NCBI RefSeq assembly: GCF_001677475.2
Contig: NZ_CP015229.1
DNA length: 64,000 nucleotides
From: Escherichia coli
Lineage (GTDB): Bacteria > Pseudomonadota > Gammaproteobacteria > Enterobacterales > Enterobacteriaceae
Strand: one strand, 5' to 3'
Part shown: positions 25,031-46,404 of the stretch, piece by piece
How the letters are laid out: each line of letters begins with the position of its first letter
Numbering within the stretch: position 1 is the first letter of the stretch
Notes under the pieces: model-generated
Seen by the model: the letters and a program-made list of their open reading frames with translations, nothing else
Told to the model about the DNA's origin: nothing
The model's database searches: none
Program-made: the position numbers and the translations under genes

Positions 25031-25472
25031 TTATGTTGGCGTTTTCTATTCAGTATAGAAGTGGGAGCGACTGGGCGAGATGCGGAAGTTCTGGAATGTT
25101 TCTTTTTTTGGTGATGGTGAACTGATTGTGACTGAAGAAGTTTGGCTACTTTTGCAATGTGACAAGTTATGGCAGAGCTGGCTGGTGGCGAAGAATTTTG
25201 ACGATTGAGGCATGCAGAAAAAAACGGGTTCAGCTTCAGTTGATCAAATGAGGAGTGAGAAGTCTGAAACAGGACTAACTGTATAAATAAACAGCTATTT
25301 TGCTGAGGAAGGGTAAGATAACGGCGGGTGCCTGAAGCTTTCCGGTTTCAGGTTTACTCTGAGGTCTGGAAAGATGAAGCCCCAGGAGATATTTCTATCA
25401 ACCCTGGGGCTGCCACTCCAAACCCGAACAATTTGGATGGTAGTCCCTTCTTCGCATGGAGGCAATATAAAC

Positions 25473-25625
25473 ATGCTGACGAAATATGCCCTTGTGGCAG
25501 TCATAGTGCTGTGTTTGACGGTACTGGGATTTACGCTTCTGGTCGGAGACTCGCTGTGTGAGTTTACGGTGAAGGAACGTAATATTGAGTTTAAGGCTGT
25601 TCTCGCTTACGAACCGAAGAAGTAG
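25473..25625 (+). CDS. hokE: Hok-family membrane toxin, copy 1
   Basis: ATG at 25473; 50 aa [50 protein letters not shown], typical Hok single-TM toxin. Confidence 0.85.
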
Positions 25626-25876
25626 CCGTTGTGCGGGGAGTAATCCCCGCATATCCGGTTGTCAGGTCAGGGTGGTAAGGCACCTGCTTTACACTTTCGC
25701 CCGCGGTCAGCAATGGCTGCGGGCGATGTCGTTTTAAGGGCAATGATCAGTTTTGCCAACAGAAGTCCGAAACAGGATTCACTGTATAAATAAACAGCTA
25801 TTTTGCTGAGGAAGGGTAAGATAACGGCGGGTGCCTGAAGCTTTCCGGTTTCAGGTTAACTCTGAGGTCTGGAAAG

Positions 25877-26065
25877 ATGAAGCCCCAGGATGATATTTCT
25901 ATCAACCCTGGGGCTACCTACCCAAACCTGAACAATTTGGATGGTAGTCCCTTCTTCGCATGGAGGCAATATAAACATGCTGACGAAATATGCCCTTGTG
26001 GCAGTCATAGTGCTGTGTTTAACGGTGCTGGGATTTACGCTTCTGGTCGGAGACTCGCTGTGTGA
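25877..26065 (+). CDS. mok-like overlapping reading frame, copy 2
   Basis: 62-codon ORF ([12 protein letters not shown]...) starting upstream of and overlapping hok copy 2 in a different frame, the arrangement of mok in hok/sok systems; assignment rests on arrangement only. Confidence 0.45.
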
Positions 26066-29527: not shown

Positions 29528-30730
29528 GTGGCGGCGTTAAAAGTAGGAAGTGAGAGCTGGTGGCAGTCGAAACATGGCCCGGAATGGCAGCGTCTGAATG
29601 ACGAAATGTTTGAGGTCACTTTCTGGTGGCGTGATCCCCAAGGTTCTGAAGAATACTCGACGATAAAGCGCGTATGGGTCTACATCACTGGTGTGACCGA
29701 TCACCATCAGAACAGCCAGCCCCAGTCGATGCAGCGAATTGCAGGCACCAACGTCTGGCAGTGGACGACACAACTCAATGCCAACTGGCGCGGCAGCTAC
29801 TGTTTTATTCCCACCGAACGCGATGACATTTTTTCTGCACCATCACCCGATTGCCTCGAATTGCGCGAAGGCTGGCGAAAACTATTACCCCAGGCGATAG
29901 CCGATCCGCTGAATCCACAAAGCTGGAAAGGCGGGCGAGGGCACGCTGTTTCTGCACTCGAAATGCCGCAAGCGCCTCTGCAACCGGGATGGGATTGTCC
30001 GCAAGCGCCAGAAATACCTGCCAAAGAAATTATCTGGAAAAGTGAACGGTTGAAAAATTCACGCCGTGTATGGATTTTTACCACCGGCGATGCAACAGCA
30101 GAAGAACGCCCGCTGGCAGTTTTGCTTGATGGCGAATTTTGGGCGCAGTGTATGCCCGTCTGGCCTGGGCTGACTTCGCTGACCCATCGTCAGCAACTTC
30201 CTCCCGCCGTGTATGTGTTGATCGACGCTATCGACACCACGCACCGCGCCCACGAACTGACGTGTAATGCGGATTTCTGGCTGGCAGTACAGCAAGAGTT
30301 ATTACCCCTGGTGAAAGCTATTGCCCCTTTTAGCGATCGCGCCGATCGCACCGTGGTCGCCGGGCAGAGTTTTGGTGGGCTTTCCGCGCTGTATGCCGGA
30401 CTGCACTGGCCTGAACGCTTTGGCTGTGTATTAAGCCAGTCAGGATCGTACTGGTGGCCGCATCGGGGCGGGCAGCAAGAGGGCGTGTTACTTGAAAAGC
30501 TAAAAGCTGGTGGAGTTAGCGCCGAAGGTCTGCGCATTGTGCTGGAAGCGGGTATTCGCGAGCCGATGATTATGCGGGCCAATCAGGCGCTGTATGCGCA
30601 ATTACACCCCATAAAAGAATCCATTTTCTGGCGTCAGGTTGACGGCGGACATGATGCGCTTTGTTGGCGCGGTGGCTTGATGCAGGGGCTAATCGACCTC
30701 TGGCAACCACTTTTCCATGACAGGAGTTGA
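29528..30730 (+). CDS. fes: Enterochelin esterase Fes
   Basis: 400-aa ORF with GTG start as on ORF track; recalled Fes N-terminus ..ALKVGSESWWQSKHGPEW. Confidence 0.9.
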   Translation: MAALKVGSESWWQSKHGPEWQRLNDEMFEVTFWWRDPQGSEEYSTIKRVWVYITGVTDHHQNSQPQSMQRIAGTNVWQWTTQLNANWRGSYCFIPTERDDIFSAPSPDCLELREGWRKLLPQAIADPLNPQSWKGGRGHAVSALEMPQAPLQPGWDCPQAPEIPAKEIIWKSERLKNSRRVWIFTTGDATAEERPLAVLLDGEFWAQCMPVWPGLTSLTHRQQLPPAVYVLIDAIDTTHRAHELTCNADFWLAVQQELLPLVKAIAPFSDRADRTVVAGQSFGGLSALYAGLHWPERFGCVLSQSGSYWWPHRGGQQEGVLLEKLKAGGVSAEGLRIVLEAGIREPMIMRANQALYAQLHPIKESIFWRQVDGGHDALCWRGGLMQGLIDLWQPLFHDRS

Positions 30731-30732
30731 AT

Positions 30733-30951
30733 ATGGCATTCAGTAATCCCTTCGATGATCCACAGGGAGCGTTTTACATTTTGCGCAATGCGCAGGGTCA
30801 ATTCAGTCTGTGGCCGCAACAATGCGCCTTACCGGCAGGCTGGGACATTGTGTGTCAGCCGCAGTCACAAGAGTCCTGCCAGCAGTGGCTTGAAGCCCAC
30901 TGGCGTACTCTGACACCGGCGAATTTCACCCAGTTGCAGGAGGCGCAATGA
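30733..30951 (+). CDS. ybdZ: MbtH-like protein YbdZ
   Basis: ATG at 30733 (MAFSNPFDDPQGAFYIL...); 72 aa; overlaps entF start. Confidence 0.9.
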   Translation: MAFSNPFDDPQGAFYILRNAQGQFSLWPQQCALPAGWDIVCQPQSQESCQQWLEAHWRTLTPANFTQLQEAQ

Positions 30952-33900
30952 GCCAGCATTTACCTTTGGTCGCCGCACAGCCCGGCATCTGGATGGCAGA
31001 AAAACTGTCGGATTTACCCTCCGCCTGGAGCGTGGCGCATTACGTTGAGTTAACCGGAGAGGTTGATGCGCCATTACTGGCCCGCGCGGTGGTTGCCGGA
31101 TTAGCGCAAGCAGATACGTTGCGGATGCGTTTTACGGAAGATAACGGCGAAGTCTGGCAATGGGTTGATGATGCGCTGATATTCGAACTACCAGAAATTA
31201 TCGACCTGCGAACCAATATTGATCCGCACGGTACTGCGCGGGCATTAATGCAGGCGGATTTGCAACAAGATTTGCGCGTCGATAGCGGTAAACCACTGGT
31301 CTTTCATCAGCTGATACAGGTGGCGGATAACCGCTGGTACTGGTATCAGCGTTATCACCATTTGCTGGTCGATGGCTTCAGTTTCCCGGCCATTACCCGC
31401 CAGATCACCAATATTTACTGCACATTGCTGCGTGGTGAACCAACGCCTGCTTCGCCGTTTACGCCTTTCGCTGATGTAGTGGAAGAGTACCAGCAATACC
31501 GCGAAAGCGAAGCCTGGCAGCGTGATGCGGCATTCTGGGCAGAACAGCGTCGTCAACTGCCGCCGCCCGCGTCACTTTCTCCGGCACCTTTACCGGGGCG
31601 CAGCGCTTCGGCAGATATTTTGCGTCTGAAAATGGAATTTACCGACGGGGAATTCCGCCAGTTGGCTACGCAACTTTCAGGTGTGCAGCGTACCGATTTA
31701 GCCCTTGCGCTGACGGCTTTGTGGCTGGGGCGATTGTGCAACCGCATGGACTACGCCGCCGGATTTATCTTTATGCGTCGACTGGGCTCGGCGGCGTTGA
31801 CGGCTACCGGACCCGTGCTCAACGTTTTGCCGCTGGGTATTCATATTGTGGCGCAAGAAACGCTGCCGGAACTGGCAACCCGACTGGCAGCACAACTGAA
31901 AAAAATGCGTCGCCATCAACGTTACGATGCCGAACAAATTGTCCGTGACAGCGGGCGAGCGGCAGGTGATGAACCGCTGTTTGGTCCGGTACTCAATATT
32001 AAGGTATTTGATTACCATCTGGATATTCCTGGTGTTCAGACGCAAACCCATACCCTGGCAACCGGTCCGGTTAATGACCTTGAACTGGCCCTGTTCCCGG
32101 ATGAACACGGTGATTTGAGTATTGAAATCCTCGCCAATAAACAGCGTTACGCTGAGCCAACGTTAATCCAGCATGCTGAACGCCTGAAAATGCTGATCGC
32201 CCAGTTTGCCGCGGATCCGGCGCTGTTGTGCGGCGATGTCGATATTATGCTGCCAGGTGAGTATGCGCAGCTGGCGCAGATCAACGCCACTCAGGTTGAG
32301 ATTCCAGAAACCACGCTGAGCGCGCTGGTGGCAGAACAAGCGGCAAAAACACCGGATGCTCCGGCGCTGGTTGATGCGAGTTACCAGTTTAGCTATCGGG
32401 AAATGCGCGAGCAGGTGGTGGCGCTGGCGAATCTGCTGCGTGAGCGCGGCGTTAAACCGGGGGACAGCGTGGCGGTGGCACTACCGCGCTCGGTCTTTTT
32501 GACCCTGGCGCTACATGCGATAGTTGAAGCTGGCGCGGCCTGGCTACCGCTGGATACCGGCTATCCGGACGATCGCCTGAAAATGATGCTGGAAGATGCG
32601 CGTCCGTCGCTGTTAATCACCACCGACGATCAACTGCCGCGCTTTGCCGATGTTCCAGATTTAACCAACCTTTGCTATAACGCCCCGCTTACACCGCAGG
32701 GCAGTGCGCCGCTGCAACTTTCACAACCGCATCACACGGCTTATATCATCTTTACCTCTGGCTCCACCGGCAGGCCGAAAGGGGTAATGGTCGGGCAGAC
32801 GGCTATCGTTAACCGCCTGTTGTGGATGCAAAATCATTATCCGCTTACAGGCGAAGATGTCGTTGCCCAAAAAACGCCGTGCAGTTTTGATGTCTCGGTG
32901 TGGGAGTTTTTCTGGCCGTTTATTGCCGGGGCTAAACTGGTGATGGCTGAACCGGAAGCGCACCGCGACCCGCTCGCTATGCAGCAATTCTTTGCCGAAT
33001 ATGGCGTAACGACCACGCACTTTGTTCCCTCAATGCTGGCGGCATTTGTTGCATCGCTGACGCCGCAAACCGCTCGCCAGAGTTGCGTGACGTTGAAACA
33101 GGTTTTCTGTAGTGGTGAGGCCTTACCGGCTGATTTATGCCGCGAATGGCAACAGTTAACCAGCGTGCCGTTGCATAATCTATATGGCCCAACGGAAGCG
33201 GCGGTAGATGTCAGCTGGTATCCGGCTTTTGGCGAGGAACTGGCACAGGTGCGCGGCAGCAGTGTGCCGATTGGTTATCCGGTATGGAATACGGGTCTGC
33301 GTATTCTTGATGCGATGATGCATCCGGTGCCGCCGGGTGTGGCGGGTGATCTCTATCTCACCGGCATTCAACTGGCGCAGGGGTATCTTGGACGACCCGA
33401 TCTGACCGCCAGCCGTTTTATTGCCGATCCTTTTGCCCCAGGTGAACGGATGTACCGTACCGGAGACGTTGCCCGCTGGCTGGATAACGGCGCGGTGGAG
33501 TACCTCGGGCGCAGTGACGATCAGCTAAAAATTCGCGGGCAGCGTATCGAACTGGGCGAAATCGATCGCGTGATGCAGGCGCTGCCGGATGTCGAACAAG
33601 CCGTTACCCACGCCTGTGTGATTAACCTGGCGGCAGCCACCGGTGGTGATGCGCGTCAGTTGGTGGGCTATCTGGTGTCGCAATCAGGTCTGCCGTTGGA
33701 TACCAGCGCATTACAGGCACAGCTTCGCGAAACATTGCCGCCGCATATGGTGCCGGTCGTTCTGATGCAACTGCCGCAGTTGCCACTTAGCGCCAACGGC
33801 AAGCTGGATCGCAAAGCCTTACCGTTGCCTGAACTGAAGGCACAAGCGCCGGGACGTGCGCCGAAAGCGGGCAGTGAAACGATTATCGCCGCGGCATTCG

Positions 33901-34829
33901 CATCGTTGCTGGGTTGTGACGTGCAGGATGCCGATGCTGATTTCTTCACGCTTGGCGGTCACTCGCTACTGGCAATGAAACTGGCAGCGCAGTTAAGTCG
34001 ACAGTTTGCTCGTCAGGTGACGCCGGGGCAGGTGATGGTCGCGTCAACCGTCGCCAAACTGGCAACGATTATTGATGGTGAAGAAGACAGCTCCCGGCGC
34101 ATGGGATTCGAAACCATTCTGCCGTTGCGTGAAGGTAATGGCCCGACGCTGTTTTGTTTCCATCCGGCGTCCGGTTTTGCCTGGCAGTTTAGTGTGCTCT
34201 CGCGTTATCTCGATCCACAATGGTCGATTATTGGCATTCAGTCGCCGCGCCCTCATGGACCCATGCAGACAGCGACAAACCTGGATGAAGTCTGCGAAGC
34301 GCATCTGGCAACGCTACTTGAGCAACAACCGCACGGTCCTTATTACCTGCTGGGGTATTCCCTTGGCGGTACGCTGGCGCAGGGTATTGCGGCGCGACTG
34401 CGTGCCCGTGGCGAACAGGTGGTATTTCTTGGCTTGCTGGATACCTGGCCGCCAGAAACGCAAAACTGGCAGGAAAAAGAGGCTAATGCTCTGGACCCGG
34501 AAGTGCTGGCGGAGATTAACCGCGAACGCGAGGCCTTCCTGGCGGCACAGCAGGGAAGTACTTCAACGGAGTTGTTTACCACCATTGAAGGCAACTACGC
34601 TGATGCTGTGCGCCTGCTGACGACTGCTCATAGCGTACCGTTTGACGGTAAAGCGACGCTGTTTGTTGCTGAACGCACGCTTCAGGAAGGTATGAGTCCC
34701 GAACGCGCCTGGTCGCCGTGGATAGCGGAGCTGGATATCTATCGTCAGGATTGTGCGCATGTGGATATTATCTCTCCAGGGGCGTTTGAAAAAATTGGGC
34801 CGATTATTCGCACTACGCTAAACAGGTAA
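30948..34829 (+). CDS. entF: Enterobactin NRPS component EntF (C-A-PCP-TE)
   Basis: 1293-aa ORF; start overlaps ybdZ stop (ATGA). Confidence 0.95.
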   Translation: MSQHLPLVAAQPGIWMAEKLSDLPSAWSVAHYVELTGEVDAPLLARAVVAGLAQADTLRMRFTEDNGEVWQWVDDALIFELPEIIDLRTNIDPHGTARALMQADLQQDLRVDSGKPLVFHQLIQVADNRWYWYQRYHHLLVDGFSFPAITRQITNIYCTLLRGEPTPASPFTPFADVVEEYQQYRESEAWQRDAAFWAEQRRQLPPPASLSPAPLPGRSASADILRLKMEFTDGEFRQLATQLSGVQRTDLALALTALWLGRLCNRMDYAAGFIFMRRLGSAALTATGPVLNVLPLGIHIVAQETLPELATRLAAQLKKMRRHQRYDAEQIVRDSGRAAGDEPLFGPVLNIKVFDYHLDIPGVQTQTHTLATGPVNDLELALFPDEHGDLSIEILANKQRYAEPTLIQHAERLKMLIAQFAADPALLCGDVDIMLPGEYAQLAQINATQVEIPETTLSALVAEQAAKTPDAPALVDASYQFSYREMREQVVALANLLRERGVKPGDSVAVALPRSVFLTLALHAIVEAGAAWLPLDTGYPDDRLKMMLEDARPSLLITTDDQLPRFADVPDLTNLCYNAPLTPQGSAPLQLSQPHHTAYIIFTSGSTGRPKGVMVGQTAIVNRLLWMQNHYPLTGEDVVAQKTPCSFDVSVWEFFWPFIAGAKLVMAEPEAHRDPLAMQQFFAEYGVTTTHFVPSMLAAFVASLTPQTARQSCVTLKQVFCSGEALPADLCREWQQLTSVPLHNLYGPTEAAVDVSWYPAFGEELAQVRGSSVPIGYPVWNTGLRILDAMMHPVPPGVAGDLYLTGIQLAQGYLGRPDLTASRFIADPFAPGERMYRTGDVARWLDNGAVEYLGRSDDQLKIRGQRIELGEIDRVMQALPDVEQAVTHACVINLAAATGGDARQLVGYLVSQSGLPLDTSALQAQLRETLPPHMVPVVLMQLPQLPLSANGKLDRKALPLPELKAQAPGRAPKAGSETIIAAAFASLLGCDVQDADADFFTLGGHSLLAMKLAAQLSRQFARQVTPGQVMVASTVAKLATIIDGEEDSSRRMGFETILPLREGNGPTLFCFHPASGFAWQFSVLSRYLDPQWSIIGIQSPRPHGPMQTATNLDEVCEAHLATLLEQQPHGPYYLLGYSLGGTLAQGIAARLRARGEQVVFLGLLDTWPPETQNWQEKEANALDPEVLAEINREREAFLAAQQGSTSTELFTTIEGNYADAVRLLTTAHSVPFDGKATLFVAERTLQEGMSPERAWSPWIAELDIYRQDCAHVDIISPGAFEKIGPIIRTTLNR

Positions 34830-34844
34830 ATTAATATTATCTAT

Positions 34845-34890
34845 AAACCCATAATTACAGAAAATAATTATGGGTTTGTTATTTATTTTA
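34845..34890 (+). terminator. Rho-independent terminator after entF
   Basis: Perfect 12-bp stem aaacccataatt / aattatgggttt with 9-nt loop, followed by T-rich tract. Confidence 0.6.
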
Positions 34891-35044: not shown

Positions 35045-36178
35045 ATGTCATCACTGAATATTAAACAGGGAAGTGACGCTCATTTTCCTGAGTATCCTCT
35101 GGCGTCGCCCAGTAATAATGAAATTGATTTACTTAATCTAATCGAAGTTTTATGGCGGGCCAAAAAAACGGTCATGGCGGTCGTTTTTGCATTTGCCTGC
35201 GCAGGTTTACTGATCTCTTTCATCCTGCCGCAAAAATGGACCAGCTCAGCCGTTATTACTCCCGCCGAAGCCATTCAGTGGCAGGACCTGGAGAAAACCT
35301 TTACCAAACTCCGCGTTCTTGATCTCGATGTTAATATCGACCGTGGCGGTGCATTTAACCTGTTTATCAAGAAGTTTCAGTCGGTTAGCTTGCTGGAAGA
35401 GTACCTACGTTCATCACCTTATGTGATGGACCAATTAAAAGAGGCGAAAATCGACGAACTGGATTTGCATCGCGCAATTGTCGCATTGAGCGAAAAAATG
35501 AAAGCGGTTGATGACAATGCCAGTAAGAAAAAAGATGAACCGTCACTGTATACCTCCTGGACGCTAACTTTTACCGCACCAACCAGTGAAGAAGCGAAGA
35601 CCGTTTTGAGCGGGTATATCGATTATATCTCTGCGTTGGTGGTGAAAGAGTCGATAGAAAACGTCCGTAATAAACTGGAGATCAAAACCCAGTTTGAAAA
35701 AGAAAAACTGGCTCAGGATCGCATTAAAACGAAAAATCAACTTGATGCAAACATTCAGCGCCTCAATTATTCACTCGACATTGCCAACGCGGCAGGAATT
35801 AAAAAGCCCGTATACAGTAATGGTCAGGCCGTTAAAGATGACCCCGATTTCTCTATTTCTCTCGGCGCAGACGGTATTGAACGCAAACTGGAAATTGAAA
35901 AAGCGGTCACTGACGTTGCGGAACTGAACGGTGAATTACGTAATCGTCAGTATCTTGTTGAGCAGTTAACAAAAGCAAATATCAACGATGTGAATTTTAC
36001 GCCATTTAAATATCAGTTAAGCCCGTCATTGCCAGTGAAAAAAGACGGTCCGGGTAAGGCGATTATTGTGATCCTTTCCGCGTTGATCGGCGGAATGGTG
36101 GCTTGTGGTGGCGTGCTGTTGCGCCATGCGATGGCATCCAGAAAACAGGATGCCATGATGGCAGACCACTTAGTTTAA
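35045..36178 (+). CDS. fepE: Polysaccharide chain-length regulator (Wzz-like) FepE
   Basis: 377-aa ORF with N- and C-terminal TM segments. Confidence 0.9.
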   Translation: MSSLNIKQGSDAHFPEYPLASPSNNEIDLLNLIEVLWRAKKTVMAVVFAFACAGLLISFILPQKWTSSAVITPAEAIQWQDLEKTFTKLRVLDLDVNIDRGGAFNLFIKKFQSVSLLEEYLRSSPYVMDQLKEAKIDELDLHRAIVALSEKMKAVDDNASKKKDEPSLYTSWTLTFTAPTSEEAKTVLSGYIDYISALVVKESIENVRNKLEIKTQFEKEKLAQDRIKTKNQLDANIQRLNYSLDIANAAGIKKPVYSNGQAVKDDPDFSISLGADGIERKLEIEKAVTDVAELNGELRNRQYLVEQLTKANINDVNFTPFKYQLSPSLPVKKDGPGKAIIVILSALIGGMVACGGVLLRHAMASRKQDAMMADHLV

Positions 36179-36990
36179 ATATTTGCGGTTGAAGGTGCCG
36201 TTCGTCCGAGCGGCACCACGAGCGGCGTTCCGGCTACCGGATCGTCAATTATCATGCAGCGCAGACCATAAATGCGCTCGATCAATTCAGCAGTGACAAT
36301 CTCCTTCGGCGCTCCCTGAGCAATAATTTTCCCTTCCCGCAATGCAATCAAATGGCTGGCGTAACGACAGGCCTGGTTAAGATCGTGCAGCACTGCCGCC
36401 AGGGTATAGCCTTTCTCACGGTTCAGTTCGCTCAACAGTTCCAGTAGATCAATCTGATGACTGATATCCAGCCAGGTCGTTGGTTCGTCGAGCAGCATAA
36501 TTGCCGTTTCCTGGGCCAGCACCATCGCGATCCACGCTCGCTGGCGTTGTCCACCAGAAAGGGTATCCACGCTTTGATTTGCCAGATGAGTTATTCCCGT
36601 GGCCTGCATCGCTTTCGTTACCGCTTCTTCATCTTCTTTGCGCCAGCGGGTAAACAGCGGTTGATGCGGGTAACGTCCACGCGCCACCAGCTCCTGCACG
36701 GTGATATCGCCCGGCGTGGTAGCATTTTGCGCCAACAGACCAATCCGGCGTGCAACCTCTTTACTGGCGTAATGTTGAATGTGCTCACCATCCAGCCAGA
36801 CATGCCCGTGAGCAGGCGTCATCAGGCGGCTTAAAGTACGCAGTAAAGTGGATTTACCGCAGCCATTTGGCCCGATAATTGCCGTGAAGTGACCATCAGG
36901 TATTTCTACAGTCAGATTTTCCGCAACGGTATATTTGCCATATCCGAGGGTTAACTGTTCGCCGCGCAAACGGGCTACTGATTCGGTCAT
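36175..36990 (-). CDS. fepC: Ferric enterobactin ABC transporter ATPase FepC
   Basis: Start trimmed to MTESVARLRGEQL (cat at 36988..36990); Walker A GPNGCGKST; 271 aa. Confidence 0.95.
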   Translation of the reverse strand: MTESVARLRGEQLTLGYGKYTVAENLTVEIPDGHFTAIIGPNGCGKSTLLRTLSRLMTPAHGHVWLDGEHIQHYASKEVARRIGLLAQNATTPGDITVQELVARGRYPHQPLFTRWRKEDEEAVTKAMQATGITHLANQSVDTLSGGQRQRAWIAMVLAQETAIMLLDEPTTWLDISHQIDLLELLSELNREKGYTLAAVLHDLNQACRYASHLIALREGKIIAQGAPKEIVTAELIERIYGLRCMIIDDPVAGTPLVVPLGRTAPSTANI

Positions 36991-37979
36991 TTTTTGCGAG
37001 ACTCCTGAATTAACAAGACGATAAGGTAAATACCGCCGAGGCTGACGGTAACGACGCCAACCGGAAGTTGATACGGCATAAACAGTTGTTGGGCGCAGAG
37101 ATCGGCCGCCAGCAGTAACAGCGCCCCGCACAGCGCCGCCTGGGTCAGCCCCCAGCGAGCGGTGCCGCTAATGCGTCGGGCAATGTGCGGCGCGACTAAA
37201 GCAATAAAGGAAATCGGCCCGGCAAGCGCTGTTGCCGCAGCGGTAAGCACCACTGCAACCAGCATCATTAATAGACGCGAACGTTCGACGCTGACGCCCA
37301 GCGCACACGCGGTATCATCGCCCATCTCCAGCAAGCGCATTCGCCGCACCAGTAAGGCGGCGGCAATGAGCATCAATATAATGATGGGGGCGGAAGGCGA
37401 GGTTTTTGCCCACGTCAGGCCGTTGAGCGATCCGGCATTCCACAAACCTGCTGTTAGCGCCGTTTCTAAAGACGCTTTCAGCAACAGCCAGGTATTAAAG
37501 GCCACCAGCATGGCGCGAACACCGATACCGATAATAATCAACCGAAAGGTGTCGATGCCGTTACGCCAGGCGAGCAGCCAGACCAACAGCGAAGTGACAA
37601 TGCCGCCCATCATTGCTGCCAGCGCGATAGCCGTCAGGTCCTGACCAAACAGCACCATCGCCACCAGCACGCCGCTCCACGCCCCGGTGTTAAAACCCAT
37701 TACGTCAGGGCTGCCGAGCGGGTTACGCATCAGCGACTGAAAAATCGCGCCGCTGACGCCCAGCGCCGCGCCAATCAACAGCGCCATCAGCACGCGTGGT
37801 AAACGCCATTCGGTGACCACCATCGTCATACTGCGCGGCGCATCGCCCATCAGCGCGGCGAATACCTGCGAGGTTTCCAGCGTGACGGCACCGCTGCGTA
37901 ATCCCCAGATACCTGCAACCACACAGGCGGAAATCAGCAGCAAACAGGTGATGAGTAATCGGCGAGAGACGTAAATCAT
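36987..37979 (-). CDS. fepG: Ferric enterobactin ABC transporter permease FepG
   Basis: 330-aa ORF; 4-nt overlap with fepC start. Confidence 0.95.
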   Translation of the reverse strand: MIYVSRRLLITCLLLISACVVAGIWGLRSGAVTLETSQVFAALMGDAPRSMTMVVTEWRLPRVLMALLIGAALGVSGAIFQSLMRNPLGSPDVMGFNTGAWSGVLVAMVLFGQDLTAIALAAMMGGIVTSLLVWLLAWRNGIDTFRLIIIGIGVRAMLVAFNTWLLLKASLETALTAGLWNAGSLNGLTWAKTSPSAPIIILMLIAAALLVRRMRLLEMGDDTACALGVSVERSRLLMMLVAVVLTAAATALAGPISFIALVAPHIARRISGTARWGLTQAALCGALLLLAADLCAQQLFMPYQLPVGVVTVSLGGIYLIVLLIQESRKK

Positions 37980-40341: not shown

Positions 40342-40354
40342 CTAAAGGTGCATT

Positions 40355-40399
40355 TTCCCCTCACCCTAACCCTCTCCCCAAAGGGGCGAGGGGACTGTT
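40355..40399. repeat. GC-rich palindromic intergenic repeat, copy 1 (family name uncertain)
   Basis: ttcccctcaccctaaccctctccccaaaggggcgaggggactgtt; imperfect palindrome; near-identical element at 48749..48794. Confidence 0.6.
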
Positions 40400-40421
40400 A
40401 GTGCTCTAATTTTATGTTTTA

Positions 40422-44384: not shown

Positions 44385-45241
44385 ATGGCTATTCCAAAAT
44401 TACAGGCTTACGCACTGCCGGAGTCTCACGATATTCCGCAGAATAAAGTCGACTGGGCCTTTGAACCGCAACGTGCCGCGTTGTTAATCCATGATATGCA
44501 GGACTATTTTGTCAGCTTCTGGGGCGAGAACTGCCCGATGATGGAGCAGGTGATCGCGAATATTGCGGCACTACGCGACTACTGCAAACAGCACAATATC
44601 CCGGTTTATTACACCGCCCAGCCGAAAGAGCAGAGCGATGAAGATCGGGCGCTGTTGAATGATATGTGGGGACCGGGCCTGACCCGTTCGCCGGAACAGC
44701 AAAAGGTGGTGGATCGCCTGACGCCAGATGCCGACGACACGGTGCTGGTGAAGTGGCGCTACAGCGCGTTTCATCGTTCTCCGCTGGAGCAAATGCTCAA
44801 AGAGAGTGGACGTAACCAGCTGATTATTACCGGGGTATATGCCCACATTGGCTGTATGACCACCGCAACCGACGCATTTATGCGCGATATTAAACCGTTT
44901 ATGGTGGCGGATGCGCTGGCCGATTTCAGCCGTGACGAGCATTTGATGTCGCTGAAATATGTGGCTGGACGTTCTGGCCGGGTGGTGATGACCGAAGAAT
45001 TACTGCCAGCACCTATCCCCGCCAGCAAAGCGGCGCTGCGTGAGGTTATCCTGCCGTTGCTGGACGAGTCCGATGAACCGTTCGATGATGACAACCTGAT
45101 CGACTACGGTTTGGATTCGGTGCGCATGATGGCGCTGGCGGCGCGCTGGCGCAAAGTACATGGCGATATCGACTTTGTCATGCTGGCGAAAACCCCAACC
45201 ATTGATGCCTGGTGGAAACTGCTCTCCCGCGAGGTGAAATA

Positions 45242-45242
<1 letters not shown>
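44385..45242 (+). CDS. entB: Isochorismatase / aryl carrier protein EntB
   Basis: 285-aa ORF; stop overlaps entA start (TAATG). Confidence 0.95.

Positions 45243-46404
<1,162 letters not shown>

What the first reader, a model, noticed from the sequence alone, without database searches (positions are those of the whole stretch)
30727..30951. Tight translational coupling in the fes-ybdZ-entF and entB-entA junctions
The fes stop is 2 nt before the ybdZ ATG, the ybdZ stop overlaps the entF ATG (ATGA), and the entB stop overlaps the entA ATG at 45242 (TAATG). This implies co-translation of the MbtH-like protein with its NRPS partner. The feature is known and conserved; noted for completeness.
Basis: seen in the sequence. 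Interest (0 to 1): 0.1.

Follow-up and report, generated by a model that had tools for sequence, protein, structure and literature searches.

The report
Overlapping gene junctions, enterobactin operons
The stop and start codons of neighbouring enterobactin genes (fes-ybdZ-entF and entB-entA) do abut or overlap as reported, but this is the ordinary, already annotated layout of E. coli, and it suggests rather than proves linked translation.

Summary
The fes stop (TGA 30728-30730) lies 2 nt before the ybdZ ATG (30733). The ybdZ stop overlaps the entF ATG (ATGA, 30948-31951 region: 30948-30951). The entB stop overlaps the entA ATG (TAATG, shared A at 45242). The K-12 MG1655 and PGAP annotations have the same geometry, and the junction sequences occur in about 5,300-5,400 of 5,426 complete E. 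coli genomes.

Conservation is only partial. In 39 Enterobacteriaceae species plus Salmonella, the ybdZ-entF distance is always 10 nt or less, but it takes several forms: -4 (23 species), -8 (7), +1 (1) and +9/+10 (8). The 2-nt fes-ybdZ spacing is specific to Escherichia; other genera have 10-30 nt. It arose when about 24 nt holding the ancestral fes stop were lost.

Every downstream start keeps a Shine-Dalgarno motif. The predicted ybdZ ribosome-binding site is unusually open. Those of entF, entA and entH are as structured as ordinary coding sequence.

The most likely mechanism is termination-reinitiation at ybdZ/entF and entB/entA. This is inferred, not shown: one of five tested E. coli ATGA pairs is uncoupled. 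"Co-translation" overstates the case. The feature is already known and of low interest.

The parts
29528..30730 (+). fes (enterochelin esterase), 400 aa, GTG start, TGA stop at 30728-30730
   Evidence: ORF list. Pfam Enterochelin_N at 1.5e-41 plus Esterase. Same extent as the PGAP and K-12 annotations.
30723..30726 (+). Shine-Dalgarno GGAG of ybdZ, inside the last fes codons, 6 nt before the ATG
   Evidence: Sequence. Anti-SD duplex -6.9 kcal/mol. GGAG is invariant in the 9-genus alignment. 95% of 39 species score -6 kcal/mol or better, against 5% of background positions.
30733..30951 (+). ybdZ, MbtH-like protein, 72 aa (ATG 30733, TGA 30949-30951)
   Evidence: Pfam MbtH at 1e-21, 76.5 bits against a cutoff of 27. 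PDB 5JA1 chain B (YbdZ) at 3.4e-46, with 3 substitutions. Annotated identically.
30939..30943 (+). Shine-Dalgarno GGAGG of entF, embedded in ybdZ codons Gln69-Glu70-Ala71, 4 nt before the entF ATG
   Evidence: Sequence. Duplex -10.3 kcal/mol, the strongest in the cluster.
30948..30951 (+). ATGA: the entF start overlapping the ybdZ stop (4-nt overlap; entF lies in the -1 frame relative to ybdZ)
30948..34829 (+). entF, non-ribosomal peptide synthetase, 1293 aa (C-A-T-TE domains)
   Evidence: Pfam Condensation, AMP-binding, PP-binding and Thioesterase. Annotation.
44385..45242 (+). entB, 285 aa, TAA stop at 45240-45242
45231..45236 (+). Shine-Dalgarno-like GAGGTG of entA, inside the last entB codons, 5 nt before the ATG
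   Evidence: Sequence. Duplex -7.2 kcal/mol.
45242..45988 (+). entA, 248 aa. Its ATG at 45242 shares its A with the entB TAA (TAATG)
   Evidence: The same 1-nt overlap occurs in Salmonella and Citrobacter.
45991..46404 (+). entH, 137 aa, with its ATG 2 nt after the entA stop. A further tight junction that the finding did not list
   Evidence: The 2-nt gap is kept in Salmonella and Citrobacter.
37976..37979 (-). ATGA overlap of the fepD stop and fepG start.
   Evidence: with the annotation offset.
36987..36990 (-). ATGA overlap of the fepG stop and fepC start
   Evidence: with the annotation offset.

Best explanation
These are the normal cistron junctions of the E. coli enterobactin gene cluster. 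fes, ybdZ and entF lie on one iron-regulated mRNA. ybdZ has its own accessible ribosome-binding site immediately after the fes stop. The entF start (ATGA) overlaps the ybdZ stop, and a strong GGAGG motif sits in the last ybdZ codons.

A ribosome that terminates on ybdZ therefore most likely reinitiates on entF (termination-reinitiation), with some de novo initiation possible in addition. This would tie EntF synthesis to synthesis of its 1:1 partner YbdZ, giving YbdZ at least equal to EntF. The entB/entA (TAATG) and entA/entH (2-nt gap) junctions would work the same way.

What is shown here: the geometry, the gene identities, the Shine-Dalgarno motifs and their conservation. [quoted passage not shown]
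For: Geometry was read directly and agrees with the reference annotations.

Identities: Pfam MbtH at 1e-21, EntF with C-A-T-TE domains, EntB and EntA, and the YbdZ structure 5JA1_B.

No promoter-like or terminator-like site lies at either ybdZ junction, and no Rfam family matches there.

Shine-Dalgarno duplex energies are -6.9 (ybdZ), -10.3 (entF) and -7.2 (entA) kcal/mol. Across 39 species, 95% of ybdZ starts and 79% of entF starts score -6 or better, against 5% of in-frame coding positions.

The ybdZ-entF distance is 10 nt or less in 39 of 39 species, even though the junction has been remodelled to -4, -8, +1 and +9/+10. Salmonella has -4.

Predicted energy to open the ribosome-binding site, against a coding background of 13.4 +/- 3.9 kcal/mol: ybdZ 6.7, which is lower than 97% of background; entF 11.6, entA 15.7 and entH 13.5, which are all background-like. 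Across species, entF averages 12.0 and ybdZ 8.0, with entF higher in 33 of 39. The -4 group averages 13.1 and the spacer group 10.2.

Precedent: 4 of 5 native E. coli ATGA pairs are translationally coupled, and predicted structure at the initiation region went with coupling (PMC6728339).

A 1:1 MLP:A-domain stoichiometry and the YbdZ requirement for enterobactin are reported in PMC7593251. Some NRPSs carry the MbtH-like domain fused in one chain (4GR4/4GR5, 6N8E), consistent with pressure for equimolar supply.
Against: I could obtain no experimental measurement of coupling at these junctions. The overlap alone is not diagnostic, since bioBF is uncoupled.

entF has the strongest Shine-Dalgarno motif in the cluster, and 9 of 39 species separate ybdZ and entF by 1-10 nt with a canonical AAGGAG. 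Independent initiation is therefore clearly workable.

No conserved hairpin sequesters the entF start: the consensus fold gave a covariation term of only -0.25 kcal/mol and no pairs over the SD or AUG.

The opening-energy comparison is a prediction on related sequences, so the species are not independent samples.
Confidence: 0.68

Rival explanations
1. The layout is compact but uncoupled. The overlaps are just tight packing of an operon, and each cistron is initiated de novo at its own Shine-Dalgarno motif, as at bioBF. Amounts of YbdZ and EntF would then be set independently.
For: All downstream genes have good SD motifs at normal spacing. Nine of 39 species have a 1-10 nt spacer carrying AAGGAG in place of an overlap. 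No conserved RBS-sequestering structure was found. One of five tested E. coli ATGA pairs is uncoupled. Overlaps are common in this region: 5 of 22 pairs.
Against: The entF, entA and entH initiation regions are not depleted of predicted structure, unlike ybdZ, entE, entB and fepE. The distance never exceeds 10 nt in 39 species despite repeated remodelling. Four of five precedents are coupled.
Confidence: 0.27
2. The start codons are wrong, so the described overlaps are artefacts of annotation. Candidates are ybdZ at TTG 30727, entA at GTG 45212, or entF at a downstream ATG.
For: The mechanical ORF list starts ybdZ at TTG 30727 and entA at GTG 45212. The fes start was itself re-annotated 78 nt upstream after proteomics (PMC4512697).
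Against: TTG 30727 has zero spacing to the SD, and GTG 45212 has no SD at all (+0.6 kcal/mol). The ATG with a GGAG about 6 nt upstream is conserved in all 39 species, whereas the upstream in-frame TTG is not. The predicted EntF N-termini align from the ATG (MSQHLPLVAAQPGIWMAE...) in all species. The Pfam MbtH match begins at residue 4.
Confidence: 0.03
3. Programmed frameshifting at the ATGA produces a YbdZ-EntF fusion protein, resembling the natural MLP-NRPS fusions.
For: MLP domains are fused to NRPSs in 4GR4/4GR5 and 6N8E. In Escherichia the entF frame stays open for 193 nt upstream of the ybdZ stop.
Against: entF is in the -1 frame, and no slippery heptamer precedes the stop. The length of the upstream open stretch in the entF frame varies from 0 to 266 nt among species, so it is not conserved. 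YbdZ and EntF were crystallised as separate chains (5JA1).
Confidence: 0.01

Closest known systems
E. coli K-12 MG1655 fes-ybdZ-entF-fepE and entCEBAH operons (b0585, b4511, b0586; b0595-b0597)
   Same: Gene order and all junction geometries are identical: +2, -4, -1, +2. The junction core sequences are identical too. The only nearby difference at the ybdZ/entF junction is a synonymous GCG/GCA change.
   Different: YbdZ differs at 3 of 72 residues (A32V, E47A, A63T relative to K-12). Overall DNA identity to complete E. coli genomes is about 97-98.5%.
Native E. coli gene pairs with ATGA overlaps tested for termination-reinitiation: hyfHI, astDB, ydbH/ynbE, menDH and bioBF (Huber et al. 2019, PMC6728339)
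   Same: The same 4-nt ATGA overlap, with an SD motif inside the 3' end of the upstream gene. The downstream initiation region has predicted structure.
   Different: Coupling at those pairs was measured. Here it is only inferred. Results there ranged from strict coupling to none (bioBF).
MbtH-like domains fused to NRPS adenylation enzymes (SlgN1, PDB 4GR4/4GR5; ObiF1, PDB 6N8E)
   Same: The MbtH-like module and its NRPS partner are supplied together from adjacent coding sequence.
   Different: Here they are two separate polypeptides in different reading frames, and EntF begins with a condensation domain rather than the A domain that YbdZ binds.

Membership tests
MbtH-like protein family (Pfam PF03621) | Profile match above the curated threshold | tested here: met
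   76.5 bits against a cutoff of 27, E = 1e-21, residues 4-54.
MbtH-like protein family (Pfam PF03621) | Conserved Trp/Pro signature (S-x-W-P ... P-x-G-W ... W) | tested here: met
   Read from the translation: S25-L-W27-P28, P34-A-G-W37, W57. The sequence aligns over its full length with YbdZ of PDB 5JA1_B.
MbtH-like protein family (Pfam PF03621) | Encoded next to an NRPS that has an adenylation domain | tested here: met
   entF (C-A-T-TE) starts inside the ybdZ stop codon.
E. coli enterobactin cluster (fes-ybdZ-entF-fepE; entCEBAH) | Same genes, order and orientation as the reference | tested here: met
   Collinear with OkiPb01695 at 96.6-97.1% identity. The annotation tables agree.
Translationally coupled gene pair (termination-reinitiation) | Stop and start codons overlap or lie within a few nucleotides on one transcript | tested here: met
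   Distances of +2, -4, -1 and +2 nt. No promoter-like or terminator-like site lies at the ybdZ junctions. That the genes share one transcript was not measured here.
Translationally coupled gene pair (termination-reinitiation) | Shine-Dalgarno motif inside the 3' end of the upstream gene | tested here: met
   GGAG, GGAGG and GAGGTG. Enriched across 39 species against background.
Translationally coupled gene pair (termination-reinitiation) | Translation of the downstream gene depends on translation of the upstream gene | not testable with these tools
   This needs premature-stop reporter constructs or ribosome profiling. The relevant papers and supplements were not held or were truncated.
Translationally coupled gene pair (termination-reinitiation) | [quoted passage not shown] | tested here: inconclusive
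   The entF, entA and entH sites have background-level predicted structure while ybdZ is open. No conserved hairpin with covariation was found.

The most novel reading that the evidence does not exclude
The two junctions flanking ybdZ may work differently. ybdZ would initiate independently at an open, deeply conserved leader (GACAGGAGTTGA(A/G)TATG). Escherichia only recently absorbed that leader into fes by losing about 24 nt. entF would be reinitiation-dependent. On this reading the poorly conserved C-terminal tail of YbdZ (residues 55-72, outside the MbtH domain) serves mainly as the entF translation-initiation region. It would hold YbdZ at or above EntF while the exact junction drifts between -8 and +10 nt.
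Probability: 0.35. Interest if true: 0.2.

Novelty: already known. Interest (0 to 1): 0.05.

Why it matters
It matters little beyond housekeeping. The junctions are part of the reference annotation, and stop/start overlaps are a textbook operon feature.

If coupling were demonstrated, it would give a simple explanation for how cells supply the MbtH-like helper in step with its synthetase. That is practically relevant to heterologous NRPS expression, where MLP co-expression is often needed.

The comparative result does refine the claim that the feature is conserved. Closeness is conserved, the exact overlap is not, and the fes-ybdZ spacing is specific to Escherichia.

Tried and rejected
1. Literature on coupling at these junctions. 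[quoted passage not shown] Li et al. 2014 and Schmidt et al. 2016 are also not held. Searches combining ybdZ with translational coupling, start codon or ribosome profiling found no statement about these junctions. The one Ribo-seq supplement is truncated and contains only entB.

2. A conserved RNA structure hiding the entF start. The consensus fold of 15 genera shows none.

3. An internal promoter or terminator at the junctions. Nothing was found above shuffle expectation, and nothing lies near 30.7-31.0 kb.

4. Rfam families at the junction: none.

5. TTG 30727 and GTG 45212 as real starts: rejected on SD spacing and on conservation.

6. A frameshift fusion of YbdZ and EntF: rejected, because the frame is wrong, there is no slippery site, and the upstream open frame is not conserved.

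7. The YbdZ scan of genome contigs used exact peptide patterns. It missed Salmonella and Klebsiella. Salmonella was recovered by walking from FepC. Klebsiella was not examined.

Full report
**Observation.** Direct reading of the window confirms every stated junction.
- fes runs from 29528 (GTG) to 30730 and ends with TGA at 30728-30730.
- Two bases (AT) follow, then the ybdZ ATG at 30733.
- ybdZ is 72 codons long and ends with TGA at 30949-30951.
- The entF ATG is at 30948-30950, so the four bases ATGA hold both signals.
- entB ends with TAA at 45240-45242, and entA begins with ATG at 45242-45244, giving TAATG.

The finding's start coordinate, 30727, is the TTG of the maximal ORF. It is not the ATG that the text describes.
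- entA/entH, a 2-nt gap.
- fepD/fepG and fepG/fepC on the minus strand, both ATGA.
- fepE/fepC, convergent stops sharing TTAA.

**Identity.** Pfam assigns the six products as follows:
- Fes: Enterochelin_N plus Esterase.
- YbdZ: MbtH, 1e-21.
- EntF: Condensation, AMP-binding, PP-binding and Thioesterase.
- EntB, EntA and EntH: their expected families.

YbdZ matches chain B of PDB 5JA1 (YbdZ) with three substitutions. The region is 97-98.5% identical to complete E. coli genomes. PGAP annotation of strain OkiPb01695 and the K-12 MG1655 record place all starts and stops at the homologous positions, and the junction cores are identical to K-12.

Within E. coli, the three 42-nt junction sequences are distributed as follows:

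| Junction | Genomes of 5,426 | Detail |
|---|---|---|
| fes/ybdZ | 5,404 matched | 5,401 at ≥99% identity |
| ybdZ/entF | 5,412 matched | 228 at ≥99%, 5,164 at 95-99%; K-12 and OkiPb01695 differ by one synonymous GCG/GCA change |
| entB/entA | 5,304 matched | all at 95-99% identity |

**Is it more than chance?** Overlaps of this kind are common.
- In the 36-kb annotated stretch around the cluster, 5 of 22 same-strand neighbour pairs overlap and two more are 2 nt apart (my count).
- Huber et al. report about 15% overlapping co-directional pairs in most prokaryotic groups (PMC6728339).

The single instance is therefore unremarkable. The informative signal is comparative.

**Comparative anatomy.** A scan of one genome per species with YbdZ returned 41 loci, of which 39 were usable Enterobacteriaceae. 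The order fes-ybdZ-entF is universal among them.
- ybdZ-entF distance: -4 in 23 species, -8 in 7, +1 in 1, and +9 or +10 in 8. It never exceeds 10 nt.
- Salmonella enterica: -4.
- fes-ybdZ gap: 2 nt only in the five Escherichia species. It is 10-30 nt elsewhere and 30 nt in Salmonella.

An alignment of nine genera explains the Escherichia case. Escherichia lacks about 24 nt that hold the ancestral fes stop and spacer in Citrobacter and Salmonella. As a result fes now reads into the conserved ybdZ leader, GACAGGAGTTGA(A/G)TATG, and stops at the TGA within it. The tight fes-ybdZ junction is thus a derived state specific to the genus.

The entB/entA 1-nt overlap (TAATG in Salmonella, TGATG in Citrobacter amalonaticus) and the entA/entH 2-nt gap are both kept in those two genera.

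**Signals for initiation.** Every downstream cistron has a Shine-Dalgarno motif at normal spacing:
- ybdZ: GGAG, -6.9 kcal/mol.
- entF: GGAGG, -10.3 kcal/mol, inside ybdZ codons 69-71.
- entA: GAGGTG, -7.2 kcal/mol.
- entH: -8.4 kcal/mol.

Across the 39 species, 95% of ybdZ starts and 79% of entF starts have a duplex of -6 kcal/mol or better. Only 5% of random in-frame coding positions do. The alternative starts fail this test: TTG 30727 has zero SD spacing, and GTG 45212 has no SD.

I also estimated the energy needed to open positions -16 to +12 around each start, in a 121-nt context. The coding background is 13.4 +/- 3.9 kcal/mol (n = 220).

| Start | Opening energy (kcal/mol) | Relative to background |
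|---|---|---|
| ybdZ | 6.7 | lower than 97% |
| fepE | 5.5 | lower than 98% |
| entE | 7.6 | lower than 94% |
| entB | 8.4 | lower than 90% |
| entF | 11.6 | background-like |
| entH | 13.5 | background-like |
| entA | 15.7 | background-like |

The pattern holds across species. entF averages 12.0 and ybdZ 8.0, and entF is higher in 33 of 39 species. The -4 overlap group averages 13.1 for entF and the spacer group 10.2. However, no conserved hairpin covers the entF start: the covariation term was -0.25 kcal/mol. No promoter-like or terminator-like site, and no Rfam family, lies at the junctions.

**Mechanism.** The best-supported reading has four parts.
- The cistrons share one mRNA.
- ybdZ initiates at its own open site.
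- Ribosomes terminating on ybdZ reinitiate at the overlapping entF AUG, helped by the GGAGG.
- The same happens at entB/entA and probably at entA/entH.

The precedent is Huber et al.: 4 of 5 native E. coli ATGA pairs were coupled, the SD usually mattered, and predicted structure at the initiation region accompanied coupling. bioBF, however, was uncoupled.

A functional rationale exists. MbtH-like proteins act at 1:1 with adenylation domains, and YbdZ is required for enterobactin synthesis (PMC7593251). Some NRPSs carry the MbtH-like domain in the same chain (4GR4/4GR5, 6N8E).

The dependence of entF on ybdZ translation, and the stoichiometric benefit, are inferences. "Co-translation" is not the right term, because the two proteins would be made one after the other. 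I put about 0.68 on coupling and about 0.27 on independent initiation. Wrong start codons (0.03) and a frameshift fusion (0.01) are effectively excluded.

**Comparison with what is known, and verdict.** The locus is the reference E. coli enterobactin cluster and meets every sequence-level criterion tested. The one defining feature of a coupled pair that matters, dependence on upstream translation, cannot be tested with these tools. The literature that might settle it was not available.

The feature is already known and of low interest. The only additions here are three:
- Closeness is conserved, but the exact overlap is not.
- The fes-ybdZ spacing is specific to Escherichia.
- The ybdZ and entF initiation regions differ in predicted accessibility.

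Noticed in passing
L046:2225-2260 (homologous to window 45965-45995); proteins P0001, P0004, P0011: Three database entries encode a 387-aa EntA-EntH fusion. In L046 an extra G in the G5 run just before the entA stop (ctgggggGcataagcatg) shifts the frame across the 2-nt gap into entH, giving ...LGGISMIWK.... This could be a real variant or a homopolymer sequencing error. It shows that these tight junctions are one indel away from a gene fusion.
   Followed up: partly
L007 (NZ_GG670150.1, 223 bp): A 223-bp scaffold in the 'Lactobacillus johnsonii ATCC 33200' assembly is 95% identical to E. coli ybdZ/entF. It is almost certainly contamination of that public assembly.
   Followed up: no
L024 (CACSKA010000002.1) compared with L025: A 647-kb contig labelled 'Chryseobacterium sp. 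18061' carries an Enterobacteriaceae fes-ybdZ-entF locus that closely resembles the one in Citrobacter sp. 18056: same junction geometry, same predicted EntF N-terminus and near-identical junction DNA. This points to a mislabelled or mixed culture.
   Followed up: no
L005 (NZ_JAATUR010000024.1): The species-representative genome labelled 'Escherichia coli strain SCPM-O-B-8794' is only 92% identical to the window across fes-entF, whereas ordinary E. coli is 97-98.5% identical. It probably belongs to another Escherichia species or clade.
   Followed up: no
window 40342-40421: About 80-90 nt between the convergent entS and fepB genes do not align to strain OkiPb01695, and both OkiPb01695 and K-12 have a gap of only 3 nt there. 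The insert contains a G+C-rich inverted repeat (ccctctcccc aaa ggggcgagggg), which looks like a small intergenic repeat element.
   Followed up: no
window 34843-34879: A 15-bp A+T-rich hairpin followed by a T-run lies just after the entF stop, ahead of the 215-nt entF-fepE spacer. It may be a partial terminator. In published RNA-seq, regulation weakens along fes-ybdZ-entF-fepE: log2 fold changes of -5.04, -4.96, -3.10 and -1.69 (PMC8910356).
   Followed up: partly
window 25326-25481 and 25829-25985: Two tandem sok-antitoxin (hokE/sok) copies lie upstream of entD (Rfam RF01794, 84-87 bits). They match the duplicated hokE annotated in strain OkiPb01695. K-12 has IS186 in this neighbourhood instead.
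   Followed up: no
window 3801-3877: A tRNA-Arg(TCT) gene (argU) lies only about 8.5 kb from cusS, with nfrA and nfrB annotated within that stretch. To my knowledge, which I did not check here, K-12 has the DLP12 prophage and the ompT region at this site. Only 2,283 of 5,426 genomes are contiguous across the stretch.
   Followed up: partly
window 36175-36178: fepE (+) and fepC (-) converge with overlapping stop codons in the palindrome TTAA.
   Followed up: yes
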